Assembly: GCA_018670085.1 (NCBI GenBank)
Contig: JABHRS010000037.1
Location: 28,500-92,499, forward strand
Origin: an archaeon
Lineage (GTDB): Archaea > Nanobdellota > Nanobdellia > Woesearchaeales > GW2011-AR9
DNA: 64,000 nucleotides
Direction of reading: 5' to 3'
A program made the translations under genes and the position numbers. The notes beneath the pieces are model-generated. The model did no database searches. It saw nothing but the letters and a program-made list of their open reading frames with translations, and was not told the origin of the DNA. Shown here one piece after another: positions 40,901-62,171 of this stretch. Position 1 is the first letter of the stretch. The number at the start of each line of letters is the position of its first letter.

Positions 40901-43900
40901 CTCCCCAGGTGAATTCTTCACAAATGTATCATTCACAAAAGTTGAATTAGAACCATTTTCCAAATATACAATTGTGTTAGCTGTAGAAATTAAAGTGTTA
41001 TTAATGAATTCAGTATGATGTGGTTCATAATTTTCACTACCAAAATGAACTGCATAAAATCCAGAAACAATATCATTTGAATCAAAGATATTCTCATCAC
41101 CAATAATTAAAACCGCAGGATATAGCACAGATAATGAAGTGATATTATTAGTTGTAAAATTACCATCTGATCCTGAAACAACAGTATTTTGAGCAGAGCT
41201 GAGATTATTATCCAGGAATATATTACTCGCACCGACTGTACTTACGTTTACAGCTGTTCCTTCATAAGCAAAAACATCATTTCTATAAAATCTATGGCTA
41301 GAACTAGAACCAACTTGAATAGCATCATTATTTCCAGATGCGATGATAGTGTTAGACTCCAATGTGGCCCCACTGGACCCAGCAAGAAAGGCAACATTTG
41401 CATTTAAACCACCACTACAGTTACAATCAATAATGCTGTTATTAACTACGGTCCCATCACTTCCAATAAAAATCCCATACTCTCCTTGAGTTGTGTTAAT
41501 TGTCACATTGTTTACAAGATTATTAGCTCCAGCAGATCCAAGCTGAATCCCAGAACTAAAATTCAAAATATTTGCAAAATTAATAATTGTGACATTGGAG
41601 TTATTTCCAACACTAATTCCATGCCCACTACTATCACCTTGAATAGAATAACCCTTCCCATTCAGTTCTATATTACTTGCATTAATAGTAAAACAAGTTC
41701 CAGTTGCGTTATTGTTCTGAGTTACATCAAAATCAGCGTTGATGGTAGTACAGTCTGTAGAACTAGAGCTAGTACTATAATTACTAAACCCAGTAACATT
41801 TGCTGACAAAATACCTGAAGACACATCATAACTAATGTTACAAAGTGAAAGATCATTATCACAACGAGTACCATCTTTCAAAAGTTGAGGCGTTTCAGGA
41901 TAAGACAAATTTTCAATAGTAATCTGAATTACTCTAGTTGCATTCAAAGTACTAAGGCTAGTATTCATCTCAAATCCGATATTATTTTGTTCTAAATAAT
42001 GTGAATCACCAAACAGCAAGTTTGTATCTGTAGATAAATTAGTAGAATTAAAGAACAAAATACTTCCATAAAAATTCTCAAATTTCAATGAACTGGTCTC
42101 AGTTAAATCAGTTCTATCATCAATCTGAAAAAAATCATCATTTTCATTTACTGTGATATTTGTGAAGAGATTACTGTTTGAATTAACCTGAAACACAAAT
42201 GATCCATTTCTAATTGAAATCTCGCTAACATTACTATCGGTTATTGATTCTAAAATTAGCTCATCATTTGTGATAGTAAAATTCTTAATTGTGATTAAAG
42301 AAGAACCAGTCATAAAAAAACCATCATTAAAATTATCATAAAGAATTATATCTTCAAAAGTTGTATAATTAGCTCCACCTAAAACATTAATACCTTTCTG
42401 GGAATGATTTACAAAAGTAAGATTATAAAAAGTACTATTTGGAGTAGAAATTTGTATCCCATTTGAATTATTGATAAAGTCAGAGTGAAAAACACTGATA
42501 TTGTTATCACCAACAACATCTGCCATAATTCCTGCTCCTTGCATATCCTTAAACCTAGAAGCTTCAATAAGAGTATTTGTAGCAGAATCCTCCAATTCAA
42601 CTCCACCGTTCCCATTAGTCATGTTTACATAACTCACTGTTGTGTTCTCAGAAGACTCCAACCCAACTGCAACACTAAAACCATCAATCTCCAAATTTTG
42701 AATTACCACATTATCAAAATCGCTCACATTAATTCCAAACCCACTACCATTCCCCGACAAACTAAATTGATTGAACCCATCAATTGTAATACCGCTTGCA
42801 TTGATAGTAAAGCAAGTTCCAACAGTTGTAATTGATTCACTAAATTCATAATCTGCATTTAAAAAAGTACAATCAGCATGCACAACTTCTGCAGTAGTAA
42901 AATTACTAAAACCAGATACATTTGCAAATAATGCAGTTTGGTTATAACTTACATTACAAAAATTAGTATCATCACATCTAACTCCATCTTTGAATAAGCC
43001 AGGAGTGTTTGAGTAAGATAAGTTATCAATCACGATTTGTGATGACACATTCAGATTCAAGTTGCTACCATTAATAGTGATACCAATGTTATTATTCTCA
43101 AAAATAAAAATCAGTCCAGGTTCCAGTTTAGTTGAAACTGTCAAATTAGTTGAACTAGTATTTATTGAACCATATGTTACATTACGATTAACAATATTAT
43201 TTGAATGTTCCAAACCAGTGAGGTCATTAATAGAATGATTTACTTGATTGGTCACAGTTATATCCCGAAGTTCATTTGATTCAGAATCCCCACTCAAAAT
43301 AATCCCAGTATTGAGATATTCTCCTAAATTGATCAGACTATTATTGACAGTATCCAACCTTAGAGTATTATTTGTTACAATATTTTCAGCAAATAAAATA
43401 TTATCTGAATGAAAAATATCTACACCACTAAAATTATGATCAGTAAAAAAATTCGATGAGATATTAGTCGAGTTTGAATCATTCAAGTAAATCCCAAAGG
43501 CACCATTTTCATAAATATTATTGCTGTCAATCACAGAGTTTATAACTTTAATATCAAGACCACTCAAGCTTTGATTAAATACTTTGTTTTCAGAGAGGTT
43601 CATCCCAGTTGCCACATTCTCCACTAGATACATTCCTTTCACATTAGAATGGATCTCATTTCCACTGAATGTGATATTATTCACATCTCCTGTTGAAAAA
43701 ACACCATAGTTTGCATTAATAGAGATACTGTTCATTGAAAAAGTGACAGTATCTATGTCCCCCAGTTCCATCCCTTCATTAAAACTTTCAATTGCACAGT
43801 TTTGAACAGTCACATTCTCAACACTAACAACTGTCAAACCGACATTTGTTTTAGCAGTTGTTCCTGTGATAGGAAAACCATTACAATCCAAAACAAGGTG

Positions 43901-44413
43901 ATCTTCACCAATTGTCAAACCATTTACCCCACTACATTTAGTAATATTATCAGTTGCATTTAATGTACGAGAAACCGTTAAAGTGTCACCGCAGTTACAA
44001 GGACTAACTCCACAATCAACTTGAGCCAATACTCCACCACCATCACCATCACTGGTTCCAGATAAAATATCACTACCACCAACCGCAGCACCAGTTAAAG
44101 AATTTCCAGAATCAGAAGAGAATAAATTAAAAAATTTTAAAACTATAGAACTTGATTCATCAGTAATTTCAGAATCCAAAGAGCTAACAGGATTATTTGG
44201 GTTAATAAGCTCAGTTTCAGTGATCTCAGAGTCCAGAGAATCAACGCCACCATAAGTTCCAGCACTAGTTACAATCGCACCAGTAATTTCTTGATCTAAT
44301 GGTGCACCAACATCAGAAGAGACCAGGATCACAATTCCAAGAATAACTGCAAGTAAACAAAATAATACTGTCCCTAGAACTACTTCTCTTTTAAACCGTT
44401 TTTGAGCACCCAT
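37913..44413 (-). CDS. Giant (2166 aa) cell-surface protein with at least 4 tandem right-handed parallel beta-helix (NosD/pectate-lyase-like) modules, Ser/Gly-rich linkers, an N-terminal signal anchor and a C-terminal TM anchor
   Basis: Repeated module C..TINA..G.CF.I.A..I.LdG.g..I.G....GI.v....v.I.N. Very many N-x-S/T sequons. N-terminal VVLGTVLFCLLAVILGIVILV and C-terminal IAFLFLLLIVGGCLIIFVFGPV hydrophobic segments. Confidence 0.85.
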   Translation of the reverse strand: MGAQKRFKREVVLGTVLFCLLAVILGIVILVSSDVGAPLDQEITGAIVTSAGTYGGVDSLDSEITETELINPNNPVSSLDSEITDESSSIVLKFFNLFSSDSGNSLTGAAVGGSDILSGTSDGDGGGVLAQVDCGVSPCNCGDTLTVSRTLNATDNITKCSGVNGLTIGEDHLVLDCNGFPITGTTAKTNVGLTVVSVENVTVQNCAIESFNEGMELGDIDTVTFSMNSISINANYGVFSTGDVNNITFSGNEIHSNVKGMYLVENVATGMNLSENKVFNQSLSGLDIKVINSVIDSNNIYENGAFGIYLNDSNSTNISSNFFTDHNFSGVDIFHSDNILFAENIVTNNTLRLDTVNNSLINLGEYLNTGIILSGDSESNELRDITVTNQVNHSINDLTGLEHSNNIVNRNVTYGSINTSSTNLTVSTKLEPGLIFIFENNNIGITINGSNLNLNVSSQIVIDNLSYSNTPGLFKDGVRCDDTNFCNVSYNQTALFANVSGFSNFTTAEVVHADCTFLNADYEFSESITTVGTCFTINASGITIDGFNQFSLSGNGSGFGINVSDFDNVVIQNLEIDGFSVAVGLESSENTTVSYVNMTNGNGGVELEDSATNTLIEASRFKDMQGAGIMADVVGDNNISVFHSDFINNSNGIQISTPNSTFYNLTFVNHSQKGINVLGGANYTTFEDIILYDNFNDGFFMTGSSLITIKNFTITNDELILESITDSNVSEISIRNGSFVFQVNSNSNLFTNITVNENDDFFQIDDRTDLTETSSLKFENFYGSILFFNSTNLSTDTNLLFGDSHYLEQNNIGFEMNTSLSTLNATRVIQITIENLSYPETPQLLKDGTRCDNDLSLCNISYDVSSGILSANVTGFSNYSTSSSSTDCTTINADFDVTQNNNATGTCFTINASNIELNGKGYSIQGDSSGHGISVGNNSNVTIINFANILNFSSGIQLGSAGANNLVNNVTINTTQGEYGIFIGSDGTVVNNSIIDCNCSGGLNANVAFLAGSSGATLESNTIIASGNNDAIQVGSSSSHRFYRNDVFAYEGTAVNVSTVGASNIFLDNNLSSAQNTVVSGSDGNFTTNNITSLSVLYPAVLIIGDENIFDSNDIVSGFYAVHFGSENYEPHHTEFINNTLISTANTIVYLENGSNSTFVNDTFVKNSPGENEVAGLQGDHIFRNVTFDKNNVSFDPGSNASILLQWYVDVNVSNSTGIAVNAATVNIYNISNLSVLSATTGSDGFVLGQIVSEGTISSTGWDYATPHFVEGIKSGYDIAVNSTINLTSLSHANATVIINVSDADLSCGTLTSSVTLTEDINAAGDCFDIETNSLVIDLAGYSINGDDTGNAFSIGNISSLVIKNGFVDDFENSFVIRHASSVNITNVSIISAEEYGFLLEDVNSSTIEGNVAENLVTGLNLSWGFDNSIYNNKFNATRNNILAAGNNTYNISYGCSDDYLNILSGNCTGGNYWQNYTGLDDGSGSSYPNNVSYDGVGDTLLPYTVSITDSEPVEDYFPLLSCSPSWSCGAWQACTGSTQARSCVDSNACGVDNGKPIEVKDCESSGSGSSGSSGNSGESESSEESNSESENSETEGSDADSNIADSGNTDSDGSVAYAPTQEGQVVGPINAELPPADEILAPELVKENLIVNLIDSEPVDAPVIGTIIGPDGEISEVSGETDDTGSESSNLAGDAGSTSSGSSTGDSSGSESGSEADFGSSDISQKTAAVVDSSYDARRVAELPREKITLSIQNTDLEKSMVLKPIATQEVEDVKPVITRKVYDGATSGGSALKVSSSAVSSDMVSASLGAIERIVIAPGSTENVQVEVTGGYATTSNTFVTVAFFAGEDGDLSDEAVYTQELEIKREVVTTSSVVPSEDGNSIDVFAVIIEREKTDSSLIQSVTDSVSANGLTGAIAGIPGELIDSFDPYSGFTVYDGQYLEISLRDVSEGSFGNLGGKFSFLGSLLTGSDSRILFTDVYGPYDISTQLEGVDSDQEGFVFAQKFGYNPDQLSSGKYVVDMVISDDRGKLSSQSFLLDLDSENDLQDTIESEIAASELESESTDLENYEEGGNSLTGALVSDMTAAISFSQIVSVAYEQTEEAAYIIYQDTLPNREAKIAFLFLLLIVGGCLIIFVFGPVRPVLFDTLGGMKDHLGELRKDLNA

Positions 44414-48662: not shown

Positions 48663-49535
48663 CTATAAAAAGCTTTGCAATATTGGCATCCAATTTTCTT
48701 GAGTTAGAAGCAGAATATAACCAAACAAAAATGCTGGAACAAATGGTACACCTTCTTTAATCACTACGTTTTTAACAATTCCAGTTCCGTACCATTTTAA
48801 TAATTTTTGAAGGTCACTTCTCTCAATTGTTTTAGGATAAATTGTTGCCCCTTTTTCACCCCTAACTTTTTCAACCAACCAATCACCTTCAACCAAATCA
48901 AGAATATTTCTTTTTTGAACAAAACATGATCTTTCAACTGCTACAATCCCAACAAATAACAAATAACTTAGGATCACAATTAATCCAAGTGATGAAAAAA
49001 TCCAATGAACTCTCATTCCTAAAAAAATACTTACAACAAAAACTCCGATTGCAGCTTTAAAATATCCACTTGACTCATAAAATAATTGTCTAAATTCATG
49101 TATGAAAGCACCTCTGTGTTCAATTGCCAAACCGATACTCCAAAGAAGAGAATAAGCAGCTCCGGAAAAAAGAAGTAACAAGATAAAAGCTAACAAATCA
49201 AATCCGATTATACCAAGTTCAGTTGATAATGATTTAAACAAAAAATCAACGCCAATAACCGCACCCATTCCGATTAAAAGTTTACTATCAGCTCCCCCCC
49301 ATTGTCCAGTGTAATACAATAATAAAGCAATTATAAAACAAATTACAAGTCCAATTAATCCACTAATGATTAATTCTACACCTAAAGTGAAGGAGAATAA
49401 CACACGTAAAATTAAAGCTGCAATTACCAAACCCCAACTAAGCAGATCAGCAACTTCGCGATGTTTAATATCAGAAATTGAACTAGCTATTAAGATAAAA
49501 AAAACCACAACTGACATCACAGAACTAAAAACCAT
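48663..49535 (-). CDS. Archaeal prepilin/preflagellin peptidase (A24 family, FlaK/PibD-like)
   Basis: SISDIKHREVAD (DxKxREIPD first catalytic Asp box) and QWGGADSKLLIG (GGADxKL second Asp box). Polytopic membrane protein. Confidence 0.7.
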   Translation of the reverse strand: MVFSSVMSVVVFFILIASSISDIKHREVADLLSWGLVIAALILRVLFSFTLGVELIISGLIGLVICFIIALLLYYTGQWGGADSKLLIGMGAVIGVDFLFKSLSTELGIIGFDLLAFILLLLFSGAAYSLLWSIGLAIEHRGAFIHEFRQLFYESSGYFKAAIGVFVVSIFLGMRVHWIFSSLGLIVILSYLLFVGIVAVERSCFVQKRNILDLVEGDWLVEKVRGEKGATIYPKTIERSDLQKLLKWYGTGIVKNVVIKEGVPFVPAFLFGYILLLTQENWMPILQSFL

Positions 49536-51632: not shown

Positions 51633-52025
51633 ATGGATTCATGTATTTTTTGCAAAATTGTTGTAGGTGAGATACCTAGTTACAAAGTTTTTGAAGATGA
51701 GAATTTTTTAGCCTTCTTAGATATTACACCAAAAAAAGAAGGTCATACATTGGTGATTCCCAAGAAACATTATAGATGGGTTTGGGATGTAAAAGAAAAT
51801 TATTCAGTAACTACAAATAAAGTTGCTAATGCTCTTAAGAAAGCATTTGACACCGATTGGGTTGTGTCTTTTGTGATGGGCGAAGAAGTTCATCATGCTC
51901 ATATCCATTTAGTCCCAAGGCAACGTGATGACGGGCACGGATCATTAATTAATGTAGATTCTAAAGTTGAAATAAATAAAGAAGAAATGCTTGAAATCGC
52001 TCAAAAAATTCGTGATTCTTTTTGA
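51633..52025 (+). CDS. HIT-family (histidine triad) nucleotide hydrolase
   Basis: CIFCKI..., HTLVIPKKH, HHAHIHLVP (HxHxHxx). Confidence 0.8.
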   Translation: MDSCIFCKIVVGEIPSYKVFEDENFLAFLDITPKKEGHTLVIPKKHYRWVWDVKENYSVTTNKVANALKKAFDTDWVVSFVMGEEVHHAHIHLVPRQRDDGHGSLINVDSKVEINKEEMLEIAQKIRDSF

Positions 52026-52346: not shown

Positions 52347-52961
52347 ATGAAAATCACTAAAAATTTCGCAATTCTCTATGGAATCCTACTAGGAGATGGT
52401 TGTTTATCAAATACTTCCAAAGCAAGATATATTTGTATTACTTGTGACAGATATTCTGATAAAGAGTTGTTCAAAAAATTAACACCTATTATTGAAAAAA
52501 TAAGAGGTAAAAAAATTAAAATAAAAGATAGAGGAACACATGGAACAATTGAGATTAAATTCTCAGATAAAAAGATGTTTGAAACATTTAAAAAAATTGG
52601 TTTTCCAGTTGGGAAAAAAGGAGTAAATCTTTTCATCCCGAAAATTTTTAAAAATCATTTGAAGGAAGTTATTCAAGGTCATTTTGCAACGGATGGGTGT
52701 GTTGTAATCACAAACAATAATGGAATTAGATATCCAAGAATTGAATTTTCAAGTATCTCTAAAGGTCTTTTAGAACAAATAAACAAATATCTCATAAACA
52801 GTAATATTAGAAGTAAAATATATCTTTCAAAGAGATACACTAATGGATGGAATAATTTGTACAGAATTCAGATAAATGGAAAGAAACAACTATGTATTTT
52901 TGAAGAGAAAATAGGATTTTTCAACCCAAAACACAAAAAAATAGCAGATTCATTCAAATAA
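52347..52961 (+). CDS. LAGLIDADG homing endonuclease (double-motif, free-standing)
   Basis: ILYGILLGDGCL (first LAGLIDADG) and IQGHFATDGCV (second), separated by about 100 aa. Typical basic DNA-binding surface. Confidence 0.8.
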   Translation: MKITKNFAILYGILLGDGCLSNTSKARYICITCDRYSDKELFKKLTPIIEKIRGKKIKIKDRGTHGTIEIKFSDKKMFETFKKIGFPVGKKGVNLFIPKIFKNHLKEVIQGHFATDGCVVITNNNGIRYPRIEFSSISKGLLEQINKYLINSNIRSKIYLSKRYTNGWNNLYRIQINGKKQLCIFEEKIGFFNPKHKKIADSFK

Positions 52962-54590: not shown

Positions 54591-54604
54591 ACGCCAACGT
54601 GGCA
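54591..54604 (+). repeat. 14-bp direct repeat (acgccaacgtggca) duplicating nt -2..+12 of tRNA-Ser, 67 bp upstream of the gene
   Basis: Exact match to 54658..54671. Followed by a perfect AT hairpin agaaaaat-cta-atttttct. Confidence 0.75.
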
Positions 54605-54659
54605 TACTTAGAAAAATCTAATTTTTCTGGTCGCCACTTAAGTGTTCATAAAAATTCAC

Positions 54660-54742
54660 GCCAACGTGGCACAATCTGGTACTGCGCAAGACTGGAAATC
54701 TTGTTTCCTCTGGATATCCCGGTTCAAATCCGGGCGTTGGCG
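54660..54742 (+). tRNA. tRNA-Ser (anticodon GGA), class II
   Basis: Acceptor GCCAACG/CGUUGGC, discriminator G. U8. 3-bp D-stem. Anticodon stem CAAGA/UCUUG with loop C-U-GGA-A-A. 14-nt variable arm. T-arm CCCGG-UUCAAAU-CCGGG. 83 nt. Confidence 0.85.
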
Positions 54743-55040
54743 CTTTTTCTTTTACCTAGCGCCGCACCTTAGAAATAGGGCATATTTGAGTATTGGACTT
54801 GTACTAACTTAAAAGATCCTATTCTAGGCTCTTTCAACAAGTGTAAGTCCTAATGGCCAAAGTAATCACTTATGGAATTCTATAAGCAGTTTCTTTGTTT
54901 TTGGAGTAAATAAGCCTCTGAACTATATAATATTTTCTTGGTAACATGGCCATTAGTGGTCCAGGAGGAATAAATACTCTTTTTCCCCATATTAGATCTG
55001 AACAATTCATCTGGTTCAAAATAATTTAGGGGGAAATACA

Positions 55041-55429: not shown

Positions 55430-55689
55430 TAGTAGGAGATTGGAAAGCAATACTTGCTACACTGTGGGTTGCATTGTGTCTTGTCTTTATTGTGTATATG
55501 ATAGAAGCGGCAAGTTATGATGTGGCTCTTGGTTTTATCGTAGGAGTAGCAGTTGTGTCAGTTTTCTTTTTGATACAACCAAACAAGTGCCGTGTTACTC
55601 AAGAAGAAGCTCCAGAAATTCTAGAAGAAGGAGATGACAGTTTACTAACACGGGTGTTTACACCTGGTTTTGTGGAGGTGAGACAATGA
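55426..55689 (+). CDS. Small two-TM membrane protein
   Basis: Two hydrophobic helices. ATGA-coupled on both sides. Confidence 0.5.
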   Translation: MIVGDWKAILATLWVALCLVFIVYMIEAASYDVALGFIVGVAVVSVFFLIQPNKCRVTQEEAPEILEEGDDSLLTRVFTPGFVEVRQ

Positions 55690-56012
55690 AACAAATATTT
55701 TCAGTCTTATTTTTGTTATTGCTGATTGCACCAATGGCATTTGCAGAAATAGACTTTGACGGAGAAGAACTCAGTACAGAAGAAGAAGCATTGCTTGATG
55801 AGATCATGGATCCAATATTCACAATTTACAATGCTCTGAAATATGTGGCAACTGTAATTGGTGTAATGGTTCTTGTCTTTGCAGGAGTTAGTTTAATGAC
55901 AGCTTCAGAACCTGCAAAAAAAGATCGAGCAAAGAATATGCTAATGGGAGTAGTTATTGGATTAACTATTATCTGGACAGCACCATTAATTGTGGAGTTA
56001 GTGTTCACATGA
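55686..56012 (+). CDS. VirB2/TrbC/CedA1-like pilin-type protein (signal peptide plus two TM helices)
   Basis: Cleavable signal MKQIFSVLFLLLLIAPMAFA, acidic segment, then two hydrophobic helices separated by a short K/R loop (SEPAKKDRAKNM). 108 aa. Confidence 0.5.
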   Translation: MKQIFSVLFLLLLIAPMAFAEIDFDGEELSTEEEALLDEIMDPIFTIYNALKYVATVIGVMVLVFAGVSLMTASEPAKKDRAKNMLMGVVIGLTIIWTAPLIVELVFT

Positions 56013-58045
56013 AACTAGCTCCATATTTTTTTCTTTTTGTATTATTAGTTAGCTCTGCGCTAGCTTTTGATTGCTCTTATGCTTCTGATAGCGAAGTTTG
56101 TGAAGAAGTGTTAGACTCTGATTTGGGTCGCTCTGAAATAGAAGAAGCTTTGTCTTCTCTTTTTTATGAAAAAACCAGTAATCCAGATCATGATTTTGTT
56201 TCAGAGTATAATAAGGCAATTGAAGTAAATTCTGCACCAAACGATGTTGAAATAATTGATTCTTCTTACATTTACGATGCATGGGTTTCTTTAGACACAC
56301 TGTCCCCTTCTGTTTATGAAACAGATGAGTTGTTAGTTCCGCCAGAAGTTGAAGCTATTTTTCACTCTGATTATTCTGTATCAATTCCTGGGTCTTACAC
56401 TGCAAGTAAATATCCTTACACCAATAGTGGCTACTGTAAACGCAGGTATTCATTGGCCTCTGAAGATGTAAAAGAATGGTTTTCAGTAAATGATGAATTA
56501 TTTGAAACCAATGAACTAACTGTAGGTAGCTCAAGTATAATATCTTATCATCAAAAAATTACTGTTAAGGTTAATGAAGCACAGTATAAATGGAAAGAAG
56601 TATGGAATAGTCATTATCACATGTATCAATGGAAGTGTGAATACTATAGAACTCTTACTCACACAGACGTTGTAGATTTAGAAGATAGTAAAGACGTAAG
56701 TAGGCGCACGCTAGATCCAAGTTATGCTATTCTTTGGTCATCACGTTATCGTGGCACTTCAACAGGCGAATTTTATGCGCACAACTACGCGCAAATAGAA
56801 TTGTCTTTTGGAAATTCCAGTTACACAGAGCAAGCGTTTGTGTACTATGTTGTGTTTGAAAAAGAACCGTACGATTTTGCAGTGTTAGTTGCCAAAGAAG
56901 TGGACAACACAGCAATTCAAGGAATGTATGTTGATGAAAACCTGTTTTATGTTGCTAACACTGCCTTGTGTCAAATAGTTGGTTACAACCATTTCTTCTC
57001 AATCACAGAAGATTGTGAAGTAGATGAAGATATTGAAGAATTAAGTGCTTCTTTTTCAACAGAGGAATCAAACTTTGATCTTACACTGTTGTATTATTTC
57101 ATTTTATTGGGTTTAGTATGCTATCTTCTTTTCAAGTTACTTGGTTCGCAGCTACGTAAAATTCTTCCATACTTTATTTTGCCGTTGTTATTGATTCCGA
57201 ATGTTTTGGCTGCGGATGAAGACTGTGGTCTTACCAATTTATCAAGTTGTATTCCTGAAGCGATGTATGATTTTATTTTAAGTATAATTAACTTGACATT
57301 ATCTCCAAGTTTAGAAATCATTCAAAATTTACTTACAAGTGATATTGACATTTCTCTCTTTTATCACGCATGGTCTGTAATACGCTATATGATTTCATTC
57401 TTCTATGTATTCTTTTTTGTCTACGCGGGCTGTGTGCTTTTGATGGGAAGTGCCAGTCCAATTCAGAGAGCGCACGCCAAAGATATGCTCAAGAACACGT
57501 TCATAATGATACTTCTGATTCACGGATCGTATTATCTTTATGATTTGTTTATTACACTTTCCAGTACAATGAGTGGGGCTATTTTAGAAATGATTGACCC
57601 TACATTCTTTATGCTGACAGCTGACAATATAATTAATATCGGGCTAGAGTTCATGTTTACTTGGTTCTATAGTTTGACATTAACATTCACAATATTATTT
57701 TTGACCTTTCGTTATATTGTTGTTGTTACAGGAGTGATTGTATTACCTATTGCACTTTTTTGTTTCTTTATTCCTCCTTTGAAAGCCTATGGTAAGTTTA
57801 TGCTTTCTGTAATTGGATTAATGCTCTTCATAACATTCATTGACTTGCTAATTATCTTAGCCTGTGCATCATTGGTAGAAATTACTCTGTTTGAAAGTAT
57901 GAAAATTTTAGTAATGATTGTTTGTTTTCTTTTCATCAATTACACACTATGGCTGTGCACTAAGTTTGCCTTTGCCATGAGTGTGAATGGTTCAATCAAA
58001 GATGATGTTAAGCAAGCTGCGAAGTATGTGGCATTGTTAGTGTAG
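56009..58045 (+). CDS. VirB6/TrbL/CedA-like polytopic membrane protein with a large N-terminal extracytoplasmic domain
   Basis: Signal peptide, an approx. 330-aa Cys-containing soluble domain, then at least 6 C-terminal TM helices. Operon partner of the VirB4-like ATPase. Confidence 0.5.
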   Translation: MKLAPYFFLFVLLVSSALAFDCSYASDSEVCEEVLDSDLGRSEIEEALSSLFYEKTSNPDHDFVSEYNKAIEVNSAPNDVEIIDSSYIYDAWVSLDTLSPSVYETDELLVPPEVEAIFHSDYSVSIPGSYTASKYPYTNSGYCKRRYSLASEDVKEWFSVNDELFETNELTVGSSSIISYHQKITVKVNEAQYKWKEVWNSHYHMYQWKCEYYRTLTHTDVVDLEDSKDVSRRTLDPSYAILWSSRYRGTSTGEFYAHNYAQIELSFGNSSYTEQAFVYYVVFEKEPYDFAVLVAKEVDNTAIQGMYVDENLFYVANTALCQIVGYNHFFSITEDCEVDEDIEELSASFSTEESNFDLTLLYYFILLGLVCYLLFKLLGSQLRKILPYFILPLLLIPNVLAADEDCGLTNLSSCIPEAMYDFILSIINLTLSPSLEIIQNLLTSDIDISLFYHAWSVIRYMISFFYVFFFVYAGCVLLMGSASPIQRAHAKDMLKNTFIMILLIHGSYYLYDLFITLSSTMSGAILEMIDPTFFMLTADNIINIGLEFMFTWFYSLTLTFTILFLTFRYIVVVTGVIVLPIALFCFFIPPLKAYGKFMLSVIGLMLFITFIDLLIILACASLVEITLFESMKILVMIVCFLFINYTLWLCTKFAFAMSVNGSIKDDVKQAAKYVALLV

Positions 58046-58103: not shown

Positions 58104-58427
58104 TTATTTTCTTGGTTTACCTGAATTCACATGAAAATGTAAGTGTTTAGAATCTTGATAGTTTCCTAAATTCGTAAGAACTCTGCATTGTCCGTGTTCC
58201 TCTGTCACTTCTTTAGATACTCTTTGTAACACATCCATAATTTCTATGATTAATGATCTATCAGTCAATGTGAGTAAAGAATTAATATGCTTCTTTGGTA
58301 CAACAACAATATGTACTGGCCAAAATGGCTTCGTGTGATAATAAGCAAGCACATTTTCAGTTTCTAGTACCTTCTTAACAGGAGTCTTCCCACTGAAAAC
58401 TTCATCACAATAAAAGTCGTCTGTCAT
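58104..58427 (-). CDS. HIT-family protein
   Basis: HIVVVPKKHINSLL and HLHFHV (histidine triad). Confidence 0.75.
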   Translation of the reverse strand: MTDDFYCDEVFSGKTPVKKVLETENVLAYYHTKPFWPVHIVVVPKKHINSLLTLTDRSLIIEIMDVLQRVSKEVTEEHGQCRVLTNLGNYQDSKHLHFHVNSGKPRK

Positions 58428-58430
58428 CTT

Positions 58431-58826
58431 CTACCTTTTTGAAATAACTAGTTCTTTAAATTTAGTTGTTTCATCAACCTTCCTTTCAAACCTTAAATCC
58501 CCAATTTCTCCAATGATAATTTCTGCGGTTGTGTAAATTATACATCCTTCTTTGAGATGTCCACCAAAGGTGTTACCATCTTTATCAGAGATAGAAAGAT
58601 GAAGATGTACTCCATCTGGTGAAAGAGTTCCCACAAGACTTACAATCTCAAACTTCTCTACAAATTCCTTTTTAATGTTTTCATCAGCTAATCGAAGTGT
58701 TGCTTTTGATAAAGAACCAACACAAGTAAGTATAACTCCTGCTTGAATTTTATTCTCATTGCAAAATTTGATTACTCTTTTTTTAAGATCTTGACCAGGA
58801 TGCAGCCGTATAGCATATGTTCTCAT
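58431..58826 (-). CDS. DUF296/PPC-domain (COG1661-like) predicted DNA-binding protein
   Basis: ILTCVGSLSKATLRL...GVHLHLSISDKDGNTFGGHL pattern typical of DUF296. Confidence 0.5.
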   Translation of the reverse strand: MRTYAIRLHPGQDLKKRVIKFCNENKIQAGVILTCVGSLSKATLRLADENIKKEFVEKFEIVSLVGTLSPDGVHLHLSISDKDGNTFGGHLKEGCIIYTTAEIIIGEIGDLRFERKVDETTKFKELVISKR

Positions 58827-58863: not shown

Positions 58864-61800
58864 ATGGCATACGACATACCACCACCACTAAGGCACAAGG
58901 AAGCCATTCTCTGGGGCCTGAACTGGAACCAGATCGGCTACGCAGCGCCAGCTCTGATCTTCAGCCTCTTTATCATCCTTAAAGCACCTTTTCCAATCGA
59001 AGTGTCTTTAGCAATTTCTGGTATTATTGTCACAATTGCTGTCTTCTTCATGTTCTTCAACGGCTTAAACAGAGCAAAGAACTTGATTCATCACCTTTTT
59101 AATCAAGAAGTAGAAGTTAATTCTGATACACTCAAAAGTATTGTAGACATTCAAAAAATTGAAAACGATATTGTATACAATTCATCACAAAAATTAGCAG
59201 TTTTAGAAATCATCCCCTTGAACTTCCTCATCAAAACAAAGGAAGAACAAGAAACAATCATTCTTGGATTTCAGAAGTTTCTCAATAGCTTAGATTTTCC
59301 AATCCAAATTCATGTGAGTAGCCATGAAATAGATTTGAAAGAGCATTTTGCAAAAGTATCAAAGAAATCAAAGAACTACAAAGAACTTTTCAAGTCATAC
59401 AAACAGTTTATTGAGGAGTCTACTAAAGATATCAAAAACAGAAAATTCTACATCATTATCAACGAGAAAGACAACTTAGAAATTCAAACAAAAGTCTGCG
59501 AAGAAAAATTACGTTGCTTAGGATTGAAAGTACAAAGACTGCAAAGTAATCAATTACTCAATTTATTCTTTGAATATATTGCAAACAATAAACAAAAAGA
59601 ACTGAAGGAAGGAGAAGAAATAGAAAATTATACTCATCATTTGCTTTCACCCAACAAAATCACCTTTTTTCATGATTTTTTGCAAGTAGATGATAATTTC
59701 TATAAAATTATTGCAGTCACAGGTTATCCTCATTCTGTTGAGATGGGTTTTCTGGATAAAATAATTTCATCTGGTGATAATTATGATGTCTCCTTGCATA
59801 TTGATCCCTTTCCAATTGAAGATATGATGATTCAACTCAATAGAGAATTACAAAAACAACAATCAGACTTGTATGCAGATAGTAACAAAGGAATCATTAA
59901 TCCTTCTTTAGAGATCAAATACAAATCAACTAGAGCTGTGTTAGAAGATTTGCAGAAAGGTAAGCAAAAACTCTTCGATGTGTCTTTGTATGTGATGTGC
60001 AAGGGATCCAGTAAGGAAGAAGCTGCCTTGTTATCTAAGAAGGTGAAAGCTGATTTTGATGGCCTGATGATTCAAAGTACGCAGCCAACTTTTCAGATGC
60101 AACATTGCTATGAATCAATGCTTCCGTTAGGGCGCGACACTGTAAAGATCAAGCGAAATATTCACACTACTGGATTATCAGCGTTCTTTCCCTTTAGTTC
60201 GCCTTTCTTAGATGTTGATAATGATGGGATATTATTAGGTCTTAACAAGAATGGAATTCCTTACATCAAAGACATTTTCCAATTAACTAATCAAAATGGT
60301 TTAGTCCTGGCTACTAGTGGTGCTGGGAAGAGTTATTATGTGAAGTTAATGATTTCTCGTCAGCACCTCAATGGCTGTGATGTGATCATAATTGACCCAC
60401 AAGGAGAGTATTTAGCAATTACAGAACATTACAAGGGAGAAACAATAACCATCTCTAAGGACTCAGAAACGATCATCAACCCTCTTGATTTAATGGGTCA
60501 TGAATATCTTGAGAAACGATTGTCTTTAATGGATTTATTTCAAATTATGTTTGGTGAATTAACAGAAATTCAAAAAGCTATTTTGGATAAATCAATTGAT
60601 TTAACCTATGCTAGAAAAGGAATCAATAGAGATAGTTATGATAAGAAGCCTCCAAAATTACAAGATTTGTACCAAGTTCTCAAAAGTTTAGAAGGTGAAT
60701 GTGCACAACAAGAGAAAGTTACCTATCGTGCATTATTGAATCGTTTAGGAATGTATACTGGCAATGGTGTGTTTTCTTTTTTGGATAAAGACACCAATAT
60801 TGATTTTGATAACAATTTTGTCTGTTTCAATATAGGAGATATGCCAAAACAAGTCAAACCAGTTGTGATGTATTTAGTTCTAGATTTTGTCTATATGCGA
60901 ATGAAGAAGTCTTTGCAAAGAAAGATTTTAGTGATCGATGAAGCATGGAGTTTATTGCAGACCGCAGAAGAATCATCATACATCTTTGAGATCGTTAAAA
61001 CCTGCCGTAAATACAATATGGGCCTATTAATGATAACTCAAGATGTAGGTGATTTAGTTGGTTCCAAAGCAGGAGCTGCGGTACTCGCGAATACTTCCTA
61101 CACATTTCTTTTACGTCAAAAATCAGCTATTATCAGCAATGTTGCTAGAACCTTTAATCTTAGTTCTAATGAGAAAGATTACTTGGTGACTGCTGAAGCA
61201 GGCAATGGAATTATGATCTTGGAGAATGAACATCAAGAATTGAAAGTGATTGCCTCAGAGAAAGAACATGAATTAGTCACAACCAACCCTGATGAAATGA
61301 TCAAGAAAAATGAGAAGAAGAAAGGCAAGAAGATACCTAAAGGTGAAGTTGAGATCATGTTAAGTATTGAGCAAGATGTGTATCCAGCAAATGACTTAAC
61401 TATTGAAGATCAAAATTTCTTGGTTAATCATGACTATGTTCTTGGCAGTTATCATGGTTTGAGCAAAGGCAGGCAAAAAGAATACTTTGTGAAGAAAAGA
61501 AAACCAGAGGGAGCCTTGCATACCTATTATGTGAATTTGATCTATGAAGAGATTAGAAAGCATACTAAGAATGCTTTGAAGAGTAGAACTAAAGAACCAG
61601 ATATTGTGTTTACTAACGCACAAGGAGAGAAGATAGCAATTGAAGTAGAGTCTGGGATTGATGTGAAATATCTGAATAAGAAAAGATATCACAATGAAAA
61701 ATTTGCAATAAGAAAAAAACAATACGGGATGAATTGCTACATATTTTTACACAAGGTAAGGTTAGAGAATAGTTACAAACGTCATGATCTTCCTATTCTC

Positions 61801-61971
61801 TTTAGAGATAATATAGAAAACTTTGTGACCTCCCAAATGAGAGGTTACAAAGAGAATATATCGTTGAAGAATCAGACATCACAAATGGCTAATTCTAAGG
61901 GTAGAAGGTCTAAAACGCCAAAATCAGAGGTCACAAGAGACATCACAAAAACAGGAGGTAAATTAACATGA
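58864..61971 (+). CDS. VirB4/TrbE/CagE-family (CedB-like) DNA-transfer ATPase with N-terminal TM helices and a C-terminal nuclease-like extension
   Basis: Walker A LATSGAGKSYYVK. Walker B ILVIDEAWSLL (DEAW). MITQDVGDL sensor. Two N-terminal TM helices (VirB3-like). The last approx. 250 aa contain EPDIVF...KIAIEVESG. Confidence 0.85.
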   Translation: MAYDIPPPLRHKEAILWGLNWNQIGYAAPALIFSLFIILKAPFPIEVSLAISGIIVTIAVFFMFFNGLNRAKNLIHHLFNQEVEVNSDTLKSIVDIQKIENDIVYNSSQKLAVLEIIPLNFLIKTKEEQETIILGFQKFLNSLDFPIQIHVSSHEIDLKEHFAKVSKKSKNYKELFKSYKQFIEESTKDIKNRKFYIIINEKDNLEIQTKVCEEKLRCLGLKVQRLQSNQLLNLFFEYIANNKQKELKEGEEIENYTHHLLSPNKITFFHDFLQVDDNFYKIIAVTGYPHSVEMGFLDKIISSGDNYDVSLHIDPFPIEDMMIQLNRELQKQQSDLYADSNKGIINPSLEIKYKSTRAVLEDLQKGKQKLFDVSLYVMCKGSSKEEAALLSKKVKADFDGLMIQSTQPTFQMQHCYESMLPLGRDTVKIKRNIHTTGLSAFFPFSSPFLDVDNDGILLGLNKNGIPYIKDIFQLTNQNGLVLATSGAGKSYYVKLMISRQHLNGCDVIIIDPQGEYLAITEHYKGETITISKDSETIINPLDLMGHEYLEKRLSLMDLFQIMFGELTEIQKAILDKSIDLTYARKGINRDSYDKKPPKLQDLYQVLKSLEGECAQQEKVTYRALLNRLGMYTGNGVFSFLDKDTNIDFDNNFVCFNIGDMPKQVKPVVMYLVLDFVYMRMKKSLQRKILVIDEAWSLLQTAEESSYIFEIVKTCRKYNMGLLMITQDVGDLVGSKAGAAVLANTSYTFLLRQKSAIISNVARTFNLSSNEKDYLVTAEAGNGIMILENEHQELKVIASEKEHELVTTNPDEMIKKNEKKKGKKIPKGEVEIMLSIEQDVYPANDLTIEDQNFLVNHDYVLGSYHGLSKGRQKEYFVKKRKPEGALHTYYVNLIYEEIRKHTKNALKSRTKEPDIVFTNAQGEKIAIEVESGIDVKYLNKKRYHNEKFAIRKKQYGMNCYIFLHKVRLENSYKRHDLPILFRDNIENFVTSQMRGYKENISLKNQTSQMANSKGRRSKTPKSEVTRDITKTGGKLT

Positions 61972-62171
61972 AAACAGAATTGTTATGGTATTCCCTTGGA
62001 GGGTTGGTGCTTAGTTTTGGGTTATACTTTATCCAAAAATGGGTTACATTCTTTCCAGAGATTGTAGTGCAAGTAGTCTTCTGGATCTGTCTTGGCGTAT
62101 TTGGATTAGCTATGTTGATGCAGGTGTTGGTAGCTGTGAAGAAGTGGTGGGGAGAGATGCGTGGTGATTGA
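61968..62171 (+). CDS. Small two-TM membrane protein, ATGA-coupled to the VirB4-like gene
   Basis: 67 aa, two hydrophobic helices. Start overlaps the VirB4 stop. Confidence 0.45.
   Translation: MKTELLWYSLGGLVLSFGLYFIQKWVTFFPEIVVQVVFWICLGVFGLAMLMQVLVAVKKWWGEMRGD

What the first reader, a model, noticed from the sequence alone, without database searches (positions are those of the whole stretch)
61330..61971. VirB4-family ATPase fused to a C-terminal Hjc-like PD-(D/E)xK nuclease-like domain
The ATPase core ends near aa 800. The last approx. 250 aa contain ...ALHTYYVNLIYEEIRK...EPDIVFTNAQGEKIAIEVESGIDVKYLNKKRY. That matches the E...PD...(E/D)xK layout of restriction-endonuclease-fold enzymes and resembles archaeal Holliday-junction resolvase Hjc (PDIIA..NGKKxLCIEVK), although the final Lys is displaced (IEVES...K). 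VirB4 and HerA are sister ATPases, and HerA works with the NurA nuclease, so an ATPase-nuclease fusion in a DNA-transfer ATPase would be functionally suggestive. One possible role is processing of transferred DNA.
Basis: inference. Interest (0 to 1): 0.65.

Follow-up and report, generated by a model that had tools for sequence, protein, structure and literature searches.

The report
Nuclease domain fused to archaeal VirB4
A DPANN archaeon's type IV secretion ATPase (VirB4) ends in a conserved, previously uncatalogued restriction-endonuclease-fold domain, which makes it a candidate for the unknown enzyme that cuts nucleic acid in relaxase-less archaeal DNA-transfer machines.

Summary
ORF 58864..61971 (1035 aa) is a VirB4 ATPase. 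After a Lys-rich linker it ends in a 177-aa module (aa 828-1004, nt 61345-61875).

- **Fold:** AlphaFold models are confident (pLDDT 86-90) and show the alpha-beta-beta-beta-alpha-beta PD-(D/E)xK core. Foldseek's best hits are almost all nucleases of that fold (NucS/EndoMS, Hjc family, R.BspD6I, Card1/Can2, EcoO109I, MUS81).
- **Signature:** E882-x3-H886 ... P-D913 ... E927-x-E929 ... K946. It is 95-100% conserved in about 150 divergent relatives.
- **Fusion:** 118 of 119 closest VirB4 relatives carry the module.
- **Operon:** About 19 DPANN loci keep pilin, then VirB6-like, then VirB4::nuclease. No coupling protein or relaxase gene recurs in the flanks.
- **Standalone copies:** These exist too, often membrane-anchored, in integrase-bearing islands.
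- **Family:** No Pfam or NCBIfam model covers the module. The only recurrent sequence hint is sub-threshold similarity to MOBC (TraX-type) relaxases, which have the same motif order.

It is not a member of the Hjc family. The likeliest role is a channel-tethered endonuclease that processes the transferred nucleic acid. Activity, substrate and direction are untested.

The parts
55686..56012 (+). VirB2-like T4SS pilin gene (108 aa)
   Evidence: PF18895 T4SS_pilin 5.7e-11 and PF04956 TrbC 1.2e-07. Conserved upstream of the fusion in 19 loci.
56009..58045 (+). 678-aa membrane protein: signal/TM segment, DUF8186-like N-terminal half (presumed extracellular), and a polytopic VirB6/TrbL-like C-terminal half
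   Evidence: No Pfam hit on its own. aa 431-647 match the TrbL_3-annotated protein of locus L031 (E=4.1e-25) and aa 26-243 match its DUF8186 protein (E=8e-15). About 8 hydrophobic segments in the C-terminal half. Conserved next to the pilin gene in 19 loci.
58864..61971 (+). VirB3/VirB4::nuclease fusion gene (1035 aa, identical to database protein P0241)
58864..59088 (+). N-terminal VirB3/PrgI-like region with two TM helices (aa ~23-60)
   Evidence: PF12666 PrgI is faint here (0.024) and found in 6 of 37 relatives. Hydropathy. Matches the PrgI+TraC-like N-domain gene of L031.
60283..61206 (+). VirB4 P-loop ATPase domain (aa 474-781), with Walker A GAGKSY at nt 60319-60336 and Walker B VIDEAW at nt 60931-60948
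   Evidence: PF19044 1.6e-25, PF12846 6.4e-14, PF01935 5.6e-14. Motif positions.
61279..61344 (+). Lys-rich flexible linker (aa 806-827, IKKNEKKKGKKIPKGEVE...)
   Evidence: Sequence. Lies outside both the VirB4 profile matches and the module alignment.
61345..61494 (+). Small N-terminal subdomain of the module (aa 828-877; beta-alpha-beta-beta); role unknown, possibly nucleic-acid binding
   Evidence: AlphaFold model m3f8e2949dcd4: E12-14, H20-27, E31-36, E45-50. L853 is invariant in the 37-sequence full-length alignment, and Y858/Y874/K877 are aromatic or basic in nearly all relatives.
61489..61848 (+). PD-(D/E)xK nuclease core (aa 876-995): helix1, strands 1-3, helix2, strand 4, helix3, strand 5, helix4
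   Evidence: Core-only model pLDDT 89.8, pTM 0.83. Foldseek against PDB and BFVD returns almost only PD-(D/E)xK nucleases.
61507..61521 (+). E882 (nt 61507-61509) and H886 (nt 61519-61521) at the start of helix 1
   Evidence: E 97% and H 100% conserved in ~150 representatives. 116 and 117 of 118 close relatives.
61597..61602 (+). P912-D913 at the start of strand 2 (the 'PD' of the motif)
   Evidence: D 100% and P 83% conserved. D in 117 of 118.
61642..61656 (+). E927-V-E929-S-G at the end of strand 3 (ExE in place of (D/E)xK)
   Evidence: E927 is 95% E and 5% D; E929 is 100%; T/S 97%; G 92%. Each E in 116 of 118.
61699..61701 (+). K946 on helix 2, the candidate relocated catalytic lysine
   Evidence: 97% K. 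115 of 118. Lies in H110-130 of the model.
61804..61806 (+). R981, a conserved arginine at strand 5/helix 4
   Evidence: 90% R and 9% K. 111 of 118.
61876..61968 (+). Basic C-terminal tail (aa 1005-1035), not part of the conserved module
   Evidence: Only the last 8 modelled residues (aa 997-1004) were predicted, with pLDDT <50; aa 1005-1035 were not modelled. The tail lies outside the module alignments.
61968..62171 (+). 67-aa two-TM protein overlapping the VirB4 stop codon; a possible accessory subunit
   Evidence: ORF. A homologue in the same position in L008 (E=3.6e-08). No Pfam hit.

Best explanation
The last ~210 residues of this archaeal VirB4 form a metal-dependent endonuclease of the PD-(D/E)xK (restriction-endonuclease) fold. 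A ~20-residue basic linker ties it to the cytoplasmic end of the VirB4 ATPase ring. That ring belongs to a minimal type IV secretion-like machine made of a VirB2-like pilin, a VirB6-like channel protein and a VirB3/VirB4 ATPase.

I propose the following mechanism. The module sits at the cytoplasmic mouth of the channel. It binds the nucleic-acid substrate, perhaps through its small N-terminal subdomain. It cleaves that substrate with a His-plus-carboxylate metal site (E882, H886, D913, E927, E929, with K946 supplied from the following helix). This creates the free end that the machine threads. The module would thus stand in for the relaxase, and perhaps the coupling protein, that these systems lack. 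I favour donor-side nicking or cutting, as non-covalent MOBC relaxases do. Processing of imported nucleic acid is the main alternative.

Shown here: the fold, the residue conservation, the fusion and the operon. Inferred: catalytic activity, cytoplasmic location at the channel, the substrate (DNA or RNA), and the direction of transfer.
For: - **VirB4 identity:**
- **Folded module:** confident models with the canonical alpha-beta-beta-beta-alpha-beta order. D913 precedes strand 2, E927/E929 lie on strand 3, and K946 lies on the next helix.
- **Structural neighbours:** almost exclusively PD-(D/E)xK nucleases, with probabilities 0.97-0.99 for the best.
- **Conservation:** the six signature residues are 95-100% conserved across ~150 representatives that are <50% identical to each other, and in 115-117 of 118 close VirB4 relatives.
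- **Fusion:** present in 118 of 119 closest VirB4 relatives and in 52 of 157 family representatives.
- **Operon:** pilin, VirB6-like and VirB4::module are the only gene families shared by most of the DPANN loci fetched. No VirD4 or relaxase family recurs.
- **Membrane tethering:** standalone copies mostly carry 2 or 4 N-terminal TM helices followed by K/R-rich segments, so this module is kept at the cytoplasmic membrane face even without VirB4.
- **Mobile context:** several standalone copies lie directly downstream of, or near, tyrosine integrases. This resembles integrase-plus-relaxase mobilizable elements.
- **MOBC hint:** the only recurrent curated-family hit is the MOBC relaxase model NF041423 (5 of 27 members, best 6.5e-4, across the PD..ExE strands). 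The TraX family shows the same order P-E..H..D..ExE..K.
- **Literature:** archaeal T4SS-like systems have no recognisable relaxase, and their DNA-processing nuclease is unknown (PMC9905601; PMC11868833).
Against: - No biochemical data exist.
- Foldseek E-values are modest (best 1e-3) and TM-scores are only 0.4-0.56.
- Model coordinates could not be inspected, so clustering of the six residues in space is inferred from their secondary-structure positions.
- Strand 3 has ExE, not ExK.
- The profile-profile comparison with TraX-type relaxases is not significant (E=0.022, probability 2%).
- VirB4 is not known to translocate DNA itself.
- The operon is chromosomal and multi-copy, in housekeeping surroundings, with no oriT or att site found. 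That fits a cellular or symbiosis function at least as well as conjugation.
- PD-(D/E)xK enzymes can also be RNases.
- The integrase linkage rests on only six sampled contexts.
Confidence: 0.55

Rival explanations
1. The machine imports host or partner nucleic acid, as the Ced system imports DNA. The fused nuclease cuts the incoming polymer in the cytoplasm, either to feed nucleotide salvage in a biosynthetically reduced symbiont or to prepare DNA for recombination.
For: - The composition equals the Ced/Ted minimal set of VirB2-, VirB6- and VirB4-like proteins, and Ced imports DNA (PMC9905601; PMC11868833).
- No coupling protein gene recurs.
- The operon is chromosomal, sits among housekeeping genes and occurs in several copies per small genome.
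- T4SS pili are already proposed as a route to host nucleic acids in ultra-small bacteria (bioRxiv 10.64898/2026.06.21.733656).
- Structural neighbours include ssDNA/RNA-degrading Card1/Can2.
Against: - An endonuclease alone does not give nucleotides.
- Integrase-linked standalone copies and the faint MOBC similarity point to mobilisation rather than feeding.
- No evidence on direction exists for these systems.
Confidence: 0.3
2. The module is a true, highly diverged member of the MOBC (TraX/CloDF13 MobC, Replic_Relax) relaxase family. It nicks site-specifically at an origin of transfer, making these units bona fide conjugation systems with a relaxase fused to VirB4.
For: - NF041423 is the only recurrent curated hit.
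- The motif order is identical, including the His and the unusual ExE.
- Both have a small DNA-binding-type region N-terminal to the nuclease core (for TraX; for the module).
- MOBC relaxases are PD-(D/E)xK enzymes without a covalent intermediate (PMC12857230).
Against: - Scores are far below the family cut-off (16 bits against 200).
- hhalign of A3 against A4 gives E=0.022 and probability 2%.
- The lysine position differs: TraX has K four residues after ExE, whereas here it is 17 residues later on the helix.
- The module's N-terminal subdomain has one helix and is not a canonical winged helix-turn-helix.
- No oriT-like repeats were identified.
- The module has no match in plasmid, phage or viral-contig collections.
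Confidence: 0.15
3. The module is an Hjc-type Holliday-junction resolvase, or another structure-specific repair nuclease, recruited to VirB4 to resolve recombination intermediates of transferred DNA.
For: Hjc/Hje structures are among the top matches (2eo0, 4tkd, 2wcw, 1gef). NucS/EndoMS, a repair nuclease, is the best hit.
Against: - No Hjc or NucS sequence model matches, even at E<=1.
- The module has ExE instead of the Hjc ExK, and an extra invariant His.
- TM-scores of 0.4-0.5 are no better than for restriction enzymes.
- Membrane tethering of all forms is unexpected for a resolvase.
Confidence: 0.05
4. The module has the nuclease fold but is a non-catalytic nucleic-acid-binding or protein-docking domain, or a gatekeeper that restricts foreign DNA entering through the conduit.
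For: The canonical strand-3 lysine is replaced by glutamate. Inactive PD-(D/E)xK domains are known (general knowledge of the superfamily). In L031 the unit is followed by a type I R-M system.
Against: Near-absolute conservation of three carboxylates, a histidine and a lysine over very divergent sequences is the pattern of an active site. ExE variants such as BamHI are active (my own knowledge).
Confidence: 0.1

Closest known systems
MOBC relaxases (pAD1 TraX, CloDF13 MobC; Pfam PF13814 Replic_Relax, NCBIfam NF041423)
   Same: - PD-(D/E)xK-related nucleases dedicated to T4SS-mediated DNA transfer.
- Same motif order P-E..H..(P/A)D..ExE..K.
- An N-terminal DNA-binding-type region precedes the nuclease core.
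- The only recurrent curated sequence hit.
   Different: - Similarity is sub-threshold and the profile-profile comparison is not significant.
- MOBC proteins are free-standing, soluble, bacterial and plasmid- or ICE-borne, and have a canonical winged helix-turn-helix.
- Here the module is fused to VirB4 or membrane-anchored, archaeal and chromosomal, and its lysine sits on the next helix.
Archaeal Holliday-junction resolvases Hjc/Hje
   Same: Minimal PD-(D/E)xK fold of similar size. Structural matches with TM about 0.46-0.49 and rmsd 3.3-5.9 A. Archaeal.
   Different: No sequence-profile match. Hjc has E..D..ExK without the His. Hjc proteins are soluble homodimers that act on four-way junctions and are never fused to T4SS ATPases.
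NucS/EndoMS
   Same: Best structural match (2vld 1e-3, 5gkj; probability 0.99). A two-part layout with a small N-terminal domain before the nuclease core.
   Different: No sequence match. NucS has a different N-terminal barrel, a D..ExK site and a PCNA-binding tail, and works in mismatch repair.
Ced and Ted DNA-exchange systems of Crenarchaeota
   Same: A minimal archaeal T4SS-like set of VirB2-like pilin, VirB6-like channel and VirB4-like ATPase, chromosomal and without a relaxase (PMC9905601, PMC11868833).
   Different: CedB/CedD/TedC are not reported to carry a nuclease domain. The VirB4 here scores best against NCBIfam VirB4 models from Mycoplasma ICEs and Firmicutes (NF045975 and NF045971). 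The taxa are DPANN.
HerA-NurA
   Same: An FtsK/HerA-superfamily ring ATPase working with a nuclease on DNA ends. Proposed by others as the ssDNA generator for archaeal transfer.
   Different: NurA has an RNase-H-like fold and is a separate polypeptide. HerA-NurA is a soluble repair complex. Here the partner is a PD-(D/E)xK domain covalently fused to a membrane-bound VirB4.
Chromosomal relaxase-less T4SS of Patescibacteria
   Same: A conserved chromosomal VirB4/VirB6/pilin system in ultra-small episymbionts, mostly without a relaxase. The authors note that 'very different relaxases' may remain to be found (PMC12102498).
   Different: That paper contains no occurrence of the word 'nuclease'. All named sources of the module found here are archaeal.

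Membership tests
VirB4 (T4SS ATPase) | Match to VirB4/TraC profiles, including the P-loop domain with Walker A and B | tested here: met
   PF19044 90.1 bits (cut-off 25.8). NF045971 323.6 bits (cut-off 325, just under). NF045975 328 bits. GAGKSY and VIDEAW are present.
VirB4 (T4SS ATPase) | Genomic association with other T4SS parts (pilin, VirB6, VirB3-like TM) | tested here: met
   Pilin PF18895 5.7e-11. VirB6/TrbL-like by homology to the L031 TrbL_3 protein. N-terminal PrgI-like TM pair.
PD-(D/E)xK nuclease superfamily | alpha-beta-beta-beta-alpha-beta core fold | tested here: met
   AlphaFold pLDDT 86-90 with that order of elements. The top Foldseek hits in PDB and BFVD are nearly all PD-(D/E)xK nucleases.
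PD-(D/E)xK nuclease superfamily | Conserved Asp at strand 2 and (D/E)xK on strand 3 | tested here: inconclusive
   P-D913 is invariant at strand 2. Strand 3 carries E927-x-E929 (ExE, not ExK). An invariant K946 lies on the next helix. Known variants of the superfamily show such swaps (my own knowledge), but the literal motif is not met.
PD-(D/E)xK nuclease superfamily | Metal-dependent phosphodiester cleavage | not testable with these tools
   Needs biochemistry.
Hjc Holliday-junction resolvase family | Sequence-profile membership (Pfam Hjc model) | tested here: not met
   No Hjc hit at E<=1 for the tail or for 27 divergent members. No PDB sequence hit by phmmer or by profile.
Hjc Holliday-junction resolvase family | E..D..ExK catalytic set | tested here: not met
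   The module has E..H..D..ExE..K.
Hjc Holliday-junction resolvase family | Close structural similarity | tested here: inconclusive
   TM 0.46-0.49 to 2eo0, 4tkd, 2wcw and 1gef. This is no better than to unrelated restriction enzymes.
Hjc Holliday-junction resolvase family | Homodimer that cuts four-way junctions | not testable with these tools
   Needs biochemistry.
MOBC relaxases (Replic_Relax / NF041423) | Profile match above the family threshold | tested here: not met
   16.4 bits against a cut-off of 200. 5 of 27 members hit at E<1, best 6.5e-4. No PF13814 hit. hhalign against the TraX family gives E=0.022, probability 2%.
MOBC relaxases (Replic_Relax / NF041423) | Order of catalytic motifs (E/H helix, D strand, ExE strand, K) | tested here: met
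   TraX family invariants are E96, H101, D151, E169, E171, K175. The module has E882, H886, D913, E927, E929, K946. The spacing of K differs.
MOBC relaxases (Replic_Relax / NF041423) | N-terminal winged helix-turn-helix that binds oriT repeats | tested here: inconclusive
   The module has a small beta-alpha-beta-beta subdomain with one helix. It is not a canonical wHTH, and no oriT was identified.
MOBC relaxases (Replic_Relax / NF041423) | Site- and strand-specific nicking at oriT, required for transfer | not testable with these tools
   Needs biochemistry and genetics.
Ced/Ted-type minimal archaeal T4SS | Only VirB2-, VirB6- and VirB4-like components, chromosomal, no relaxase or coupling protein | tested here: met
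   The only gene families shared by most loci are these three. The window is chromosomal.
Ced/Ted-type minimal archaeal T4SS | Orthology of the ATPase to CedB/TedC, and DNA import activity | not tested
   No Ced/Ted sequences were compared. The best NCBIfam matches are the Mycoplasma-ICE and Firmicutes CD1110 VirB4 models.

The most novel reading that the evidence does not exclude
The module is the long-sought nucleic-acid-processing enzyme of relaxase-less archaeal T4SS-like machines. It would be a very distant MOBC-like endonuclease built into the VirB4 motor, so that cutting and translocation are coupled in one polypeptide. Mobile islands would carry membrane-anchored copies to use the same conduit. 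A variant of this reading is that it couples import of host DNA or RNA to cleavage, as the feeding mechanism of DPANN episymbionts.
Probability: 0.3. Interest if true: 0.85.

Novelty: new variant of a known kind. Interest (0 to 1): 0.62.

Why it matters
Archaeal conjugation and DNA exchange (Ced, Ted, archaeal plasmids) and the chromosomal T4SS of ultra-small symbionts lack any recognisable relaxase. How their substrate is cut and loaded is an open question (PMC9905601, PMC11868833, PMC12102498).

A nuclease domain with a conserved active-site signature, covalently fused to VirB4 in essentially all members of a large DPANN clade, gives that question a concrete target. The target can be cloned, and specific residues can be mutated.

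The finding also defines an uncurated PD-(D/E)xK family (455 cluster representatives). It exists in three architectures: VirB4-fused, TM-anchored and soluble. It also hints at a link to MOBC relaxases.

Tried and rejected
- **Sequence searches of the tail.** Pfam and NCBIfam gave no family above threshold. PDB sequences gave nothing by phmmer, and two profiles returned only chance hits to teneurin and ubiquitin-like proteins.
- **MOBC membership.** I fetched the pTEF1 TraX-like relaxase, built a family alignment and ran hhalign. The motifs align but the result is not significant. The CloDF13 record lacked a MobC annotation and was not pursued.
- **PF26593.** This precomputed domain appears on relatives. 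It is not the tail: C-terminal fragments that hold the tail lack it, and in L031 it sits in the separate N-terminal gene, named TraC-like.
- **Integrated-element hypothesis for the window's operon.** I found no att-like repeat of the adjacent tRNA-Ser and no integrase among the window ORFs that I scanned against Pfam. The surroundings are housekeeping genes.
- **Other collections.** The plasmid, phage and IMG/VR collections gave no relatives.
- **Antisense ORF 61396..61722 (-).** Dismissed, because the + frame is the conserved one in all homologues.
- **Genome scan with alignment A3.** A1 was used instead.


Full report
**1. What is in the sequence**

The window carries a single uninterrupted ORF at 58864..61971 on the + strand, 1035 aa long. 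Residues ~16-805 are a VirB4-type T4SS ATPase:
- NCBIfam NF045975 (Mycoplasma ICE VirB4) scores 7.5e-98.
- NF045971 (CD1110 family) scores 2.5e-96, at 323.6 bits against a cut-off of 325.
- Pfam P-loop_TraG covers aa 474-781 (1.6e-25), with DUF87 and AAA_10 also matching.
- Walker A (GAGKSY) begins at aa 486 and Walker B (VIDEAW) at aa 690.
- The N-terminus has two hydrophobic helices and a faint PrgI (VirB3-like) match.

After 'VTTNPDEM' comes a Lys-rich linker (aa 806-827). A 177-aa module follows (aa 828-1004, nt 61345-61875), then a basic tail that lies outside the conserved module. The protein is identical to a database entry named only 'DUF87 domain-containing protein [archaeon]' or 'TraC' (P0241).

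**2. The tail is a real, conserved domain**

A search with the tail alone found eight close relatives. Some were C-terminal fragments of VirB4 proteins. Others were free-standing proteins with N-terminal TM helices.

A profile of their shared module (A1) was scored against 1.84 billion cluster representatives. It found 455 proteins at E<=1e-3 and 218 at E<=1e-10.

Over the ~150 best representatives, each <50% identical to the others, six positions are nearly invariant:

| Residue | Conservation |
|---|---|
| E882 | 97% |
| H886 | 100% |
| D913 | 100% (preceded by P in 83%) |
| E927 | 95% E, 5% D |
| E929 | 100% |
| K946 | 97% |

T/S930, G931 and R981 are also highly conserved.

**3. Fold**

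AlphaFold2 on the module gives pLDDT 85.9 and pTM 0.82. On the core alone (aa 876-995), with a 27-sequence divergent alignment, it gives pLDDT 89.8 and pTM 0.83, and all five models score >=87.

The order of elements is a small beta-alpha-beta-beta subdomain, then helix, three strands, long helix, strand, helix, strand, helix. This is the alpha-beta-beta-beta-alpha-beta core of PD-(D/E)xK nucleases. The conserved residues fall where that fold has its active site:
- E882 and H886 at the start of helix 1.
- P-D913 at the start of strand 2.
- E927-x-E929 on strand 3.
- K946 on the following helix.

Foldseek against the PDB returns almost only PD-(D/E)xK nucleases in the top ~40:
- NucS/EndoMS (2vld at 1e-3, 5gkj; probability 0.99).
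- The Hjc-family protein ST1444 (2eo0; TM 0.49/0.48).
- The R.BspD6I small subunit (TM 0.53).
- YaeQ, VC1899, Card1, Cdn1 and Can2.
- S. solfataricus Hjc (4tkd; rmsd 3.3 A over 84 columns).
- EcoO109I, HindIII, MUS81, A. fulgidus and P. furiosus Hjc, LmuA, PspGI and VRR-NUC.

In the viral library, the named hits are restriction endonucleases, VRR-NUC, Endonuclease I and Mrr-type proteins.

**4. The motif variant**

Strand 3 reads ExE rather than (D/E)xK, and the conserved lysine comes from the next helix. From my own knowledge of the superfamily (reviews of type II restriction enzymes and of PD-(D/E)xK diversity), two precedents exist:
- BamHI has a Glu in place of the Lys.
- In the influenza and bunyavirus cap-snatching endonucleases, a His on a helix joins the PD...E...K set and the Lys lies on a helix.

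A His-plus-carboxylate metal site with a relocated Lys is therefore precedented. I did not test this here.

**5. Is the fusion conserved?**

Yes. Of the 119 closest relatives of the VirB4 core alone (51-100% identity, labelled Woesearchaeota, Nanoarchaeota or Nanoarchaeia where named), 118 contain the module. The six residues are intact in 115-117 of those 118. Of 157 family proteins retrieved, 52 are VirB4-fused.

A scan of one genome per GTDB species found 24 loci, all in DPANN-type archaeal MAGs, often with 2-4 per genome. In 19 of them the gene order is pilin, then VirB6-like, then (0-3 kb) VirB4::module. Clustering all ORFs of these loci shows that these three are the only widely shared families. 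No coupling protein or relaxase family recurs.

The same order holds in the window:
- Pilin at 55686..56012 (PF18895, 5.7e-11).
- A 678-aa protein at 56009..58045. Its C-terminal half matches a TrbL_3-annotated protein (E=4.1e-25) and its N-terminal half matches a DUF8186 protein.
- Two opposite-strand genes (HIT and PCC families).
- The fusion gene.
- An overlapping 67-aa TM protein.

In a Diapherotrites genome the VirB4 is split into a PrgI+TraC-like N-domain gene and a 770-aa ATPase::module gene. The family also reaches Micrarchaeota. The window itself is ordinary chromosome, with phosphoketolase, acetate kinase, IleRS and a tRNA. There is no att-like repeat.

**6. Free-standing copies**

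105 of 157 family proteins lack the ATPase. Many have 2 or 4 N-terminal TM helices followed by a K/R-rich stretch and a linker. By the positive-inside rule, this puts the module on the cytoplasmic face of the membrane (inference).

I sampled six genomic contexts:
- Two copies lie directly downstream of a tyrosine integrase on the same strand (P0018, P0366).
- Two more have integrases within 5-7 kb (P0004, P0365).
- Transposase and Schlafen-AlbA_2/HATPase regulator genes lie nearby.

This looks like variable or mobile islands, but the sample is small. No relatives occur in the plasmid, phage or IMG/VR collections.

**7. Relationship to known families**

No Pfam or NCBIfam model reaches threshold on the tail. 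Scanning 27 divergent members one by one gives only weak hits:
- DUF6826 in 6 members (best 1.1e-4), mapping to the catalytic strands.
- CoiA nuclease-like domain in 2 members.
- RAI1 PD-(D/E)XK and the XcyI endonuclease in 1 member each.

In NCBIfam, the single recurrent hit is NF041423, 'MobC family replication-relaxation protein'. It appears in 5 of 27 members (best 6.5e-4) and is aligned over the PD..ExE strands.

MOBC relaxases (pAD1 TraX, CloDF13 MobC) are the one relaxase class related to PD-(D/E)xK restriction enzymes. They have an N-terminal winged helix and form no covalent DNA intermediate (PMC12857230).

I fetched the TraX-like protein of pTEF1 and aligned 18 relatives. Their invariant residues run P95-E96..H101..D151..E169-x-E171..K175, the same order as in the module, including the His and the unusual ExE. 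However, profile-profile comparison aligns these motifs at only E=0.022 and probability 2%. The lysine spacing also differs. MOBC membership is therefore not shown. The resemblance is a lead.

**8. Mechanism**

- **Shown:** a VirB4 ATPase carries a conserved PD-(D/E)xK-fold module with an active-site-like signature. The fusion is fixed in a large DPANN clade. It belongs to a three-gene T4SS-like unit in which no relaxase or coupling-protein gene recurs. This module is otherwise usually membrane-anchored.
- **Inferred:** the module is an active metal-dependent endonuclease held at the cytoplasmic mouth of the channel by a flexible linker, six or twelve copies per ATPase ring. It cleaves the nucleic acid that the machine handles.

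I favour donor-side cutting or nicking that creates the end to be threaded, that is, a relaxase substitute. Three observations support this: the integrase-linked standalone copies, the MOBC-like motif pattern, and the lack of any other candidate enzyme.

The main alternative is cleavage of imported host nucleic acid. That fits the Ced precedent for import (PMC9905601, PMC11868833). It also fits the chromosomal multi-copy state in reduced symbionts, and current ideas on T4SS-mediated feeding in ultra-small bacteria (bioRxiv 10.64898/2026.06.21.733656).

The Hjc-type resolvase and non-catalytic readings are less likely. The reasons are given under the rival explanations.

**9. Novelty**

I found no paper describing a nuclease domain on archaeal VirB4 proteins.
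- The Patescibacteria T4SS study notes the general absence of relaxases and leaves open that 'very different relaxases' exist.
- The Ced/Ted papers state that relaxase homologues are absent and propose NurA-HerA or a ParB-like nuclease.
- An earlier claim of a restriction-endonuclease domain in nanohaloarchaeal SPEARE proteins, which also contain a VirB4-like domain, was refuted by others and concerns a different protein.

The fold and the idea of a nuclease working with a ring ATPase are known. The family, the fusion to VirB4 and its fixation in DPANN T4SS-like units appear undescribed. I rate it a new variant of a known kind. Interest is moderately high, because it turns an open question into a testable one.

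Noticed in passing
window 54601-54614 and 54660-54743: The first ~14 nt of tRNA-Ser(GGA) ('gccaacgtggca') are duplicated about 58 nt upstream of the gene. This may be a partial tRNA 5' duplication. No matching 3' repeat was found downstream.
   Followed up: partly
window 52347-52961 (+): A free-standing LAGLIDADG homing-endonuclease ORF (PF14528, 6.9e-17), although the window holds no rRNA gene or recognised intron.
   Followed up: no
window 58104-58826 (-) and 51633-52025 (+): A HIT-family gene and a PCC/PPC-domain gene lie on the opposite strand between the VirB6-like and VirB4 genes. A second HIT paralogue lies 6 kb upstream. Other loci also have 0-3 kb of variable insert at this position.
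   Followed up: partly
window 37913-44413 (-) and 48663-49535 (-): A 2166-aa beta-helix/NosD-repeat protein (presumably a surface protein) and a prepilin peptidase (A24) lie near the T4SS unit. This may be a cell-surface or host-interaction neighbourhood.
   Followed up: no
window 61968-62171 (+): A 67-aa two-TM ORF overlaps the VirB4 stop codon. A homologue sits in the same position in locus L008 (E=3.6e-08). It may be an unrecognised small subunit.
   Followed up: partly
L031 10338-15533: In the Diapherotrites genome, a complete type I restriction-modification system (HsdR, HsdM, HsdS) directly follows the T4SS unit.
   Followed up: no
L003-L026 (record titles): Many genome records that hold this Woesearchaeota-type operon are titled 'uncultured Methanosarcinales archaeon', which is probably a mislabel. 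Several contigs of 0.8-1.0 Mb suggest small genomes.
   Followed up: no
L029 8001-9212; L035 7001-7888: Standalone module genes sit immediately downstream of tyrosine integrase genes on the same strand. In L035 a Pif1-like helicase lies 4 kb upstream. These may be small mobilizable islands.
   Followed up: partly
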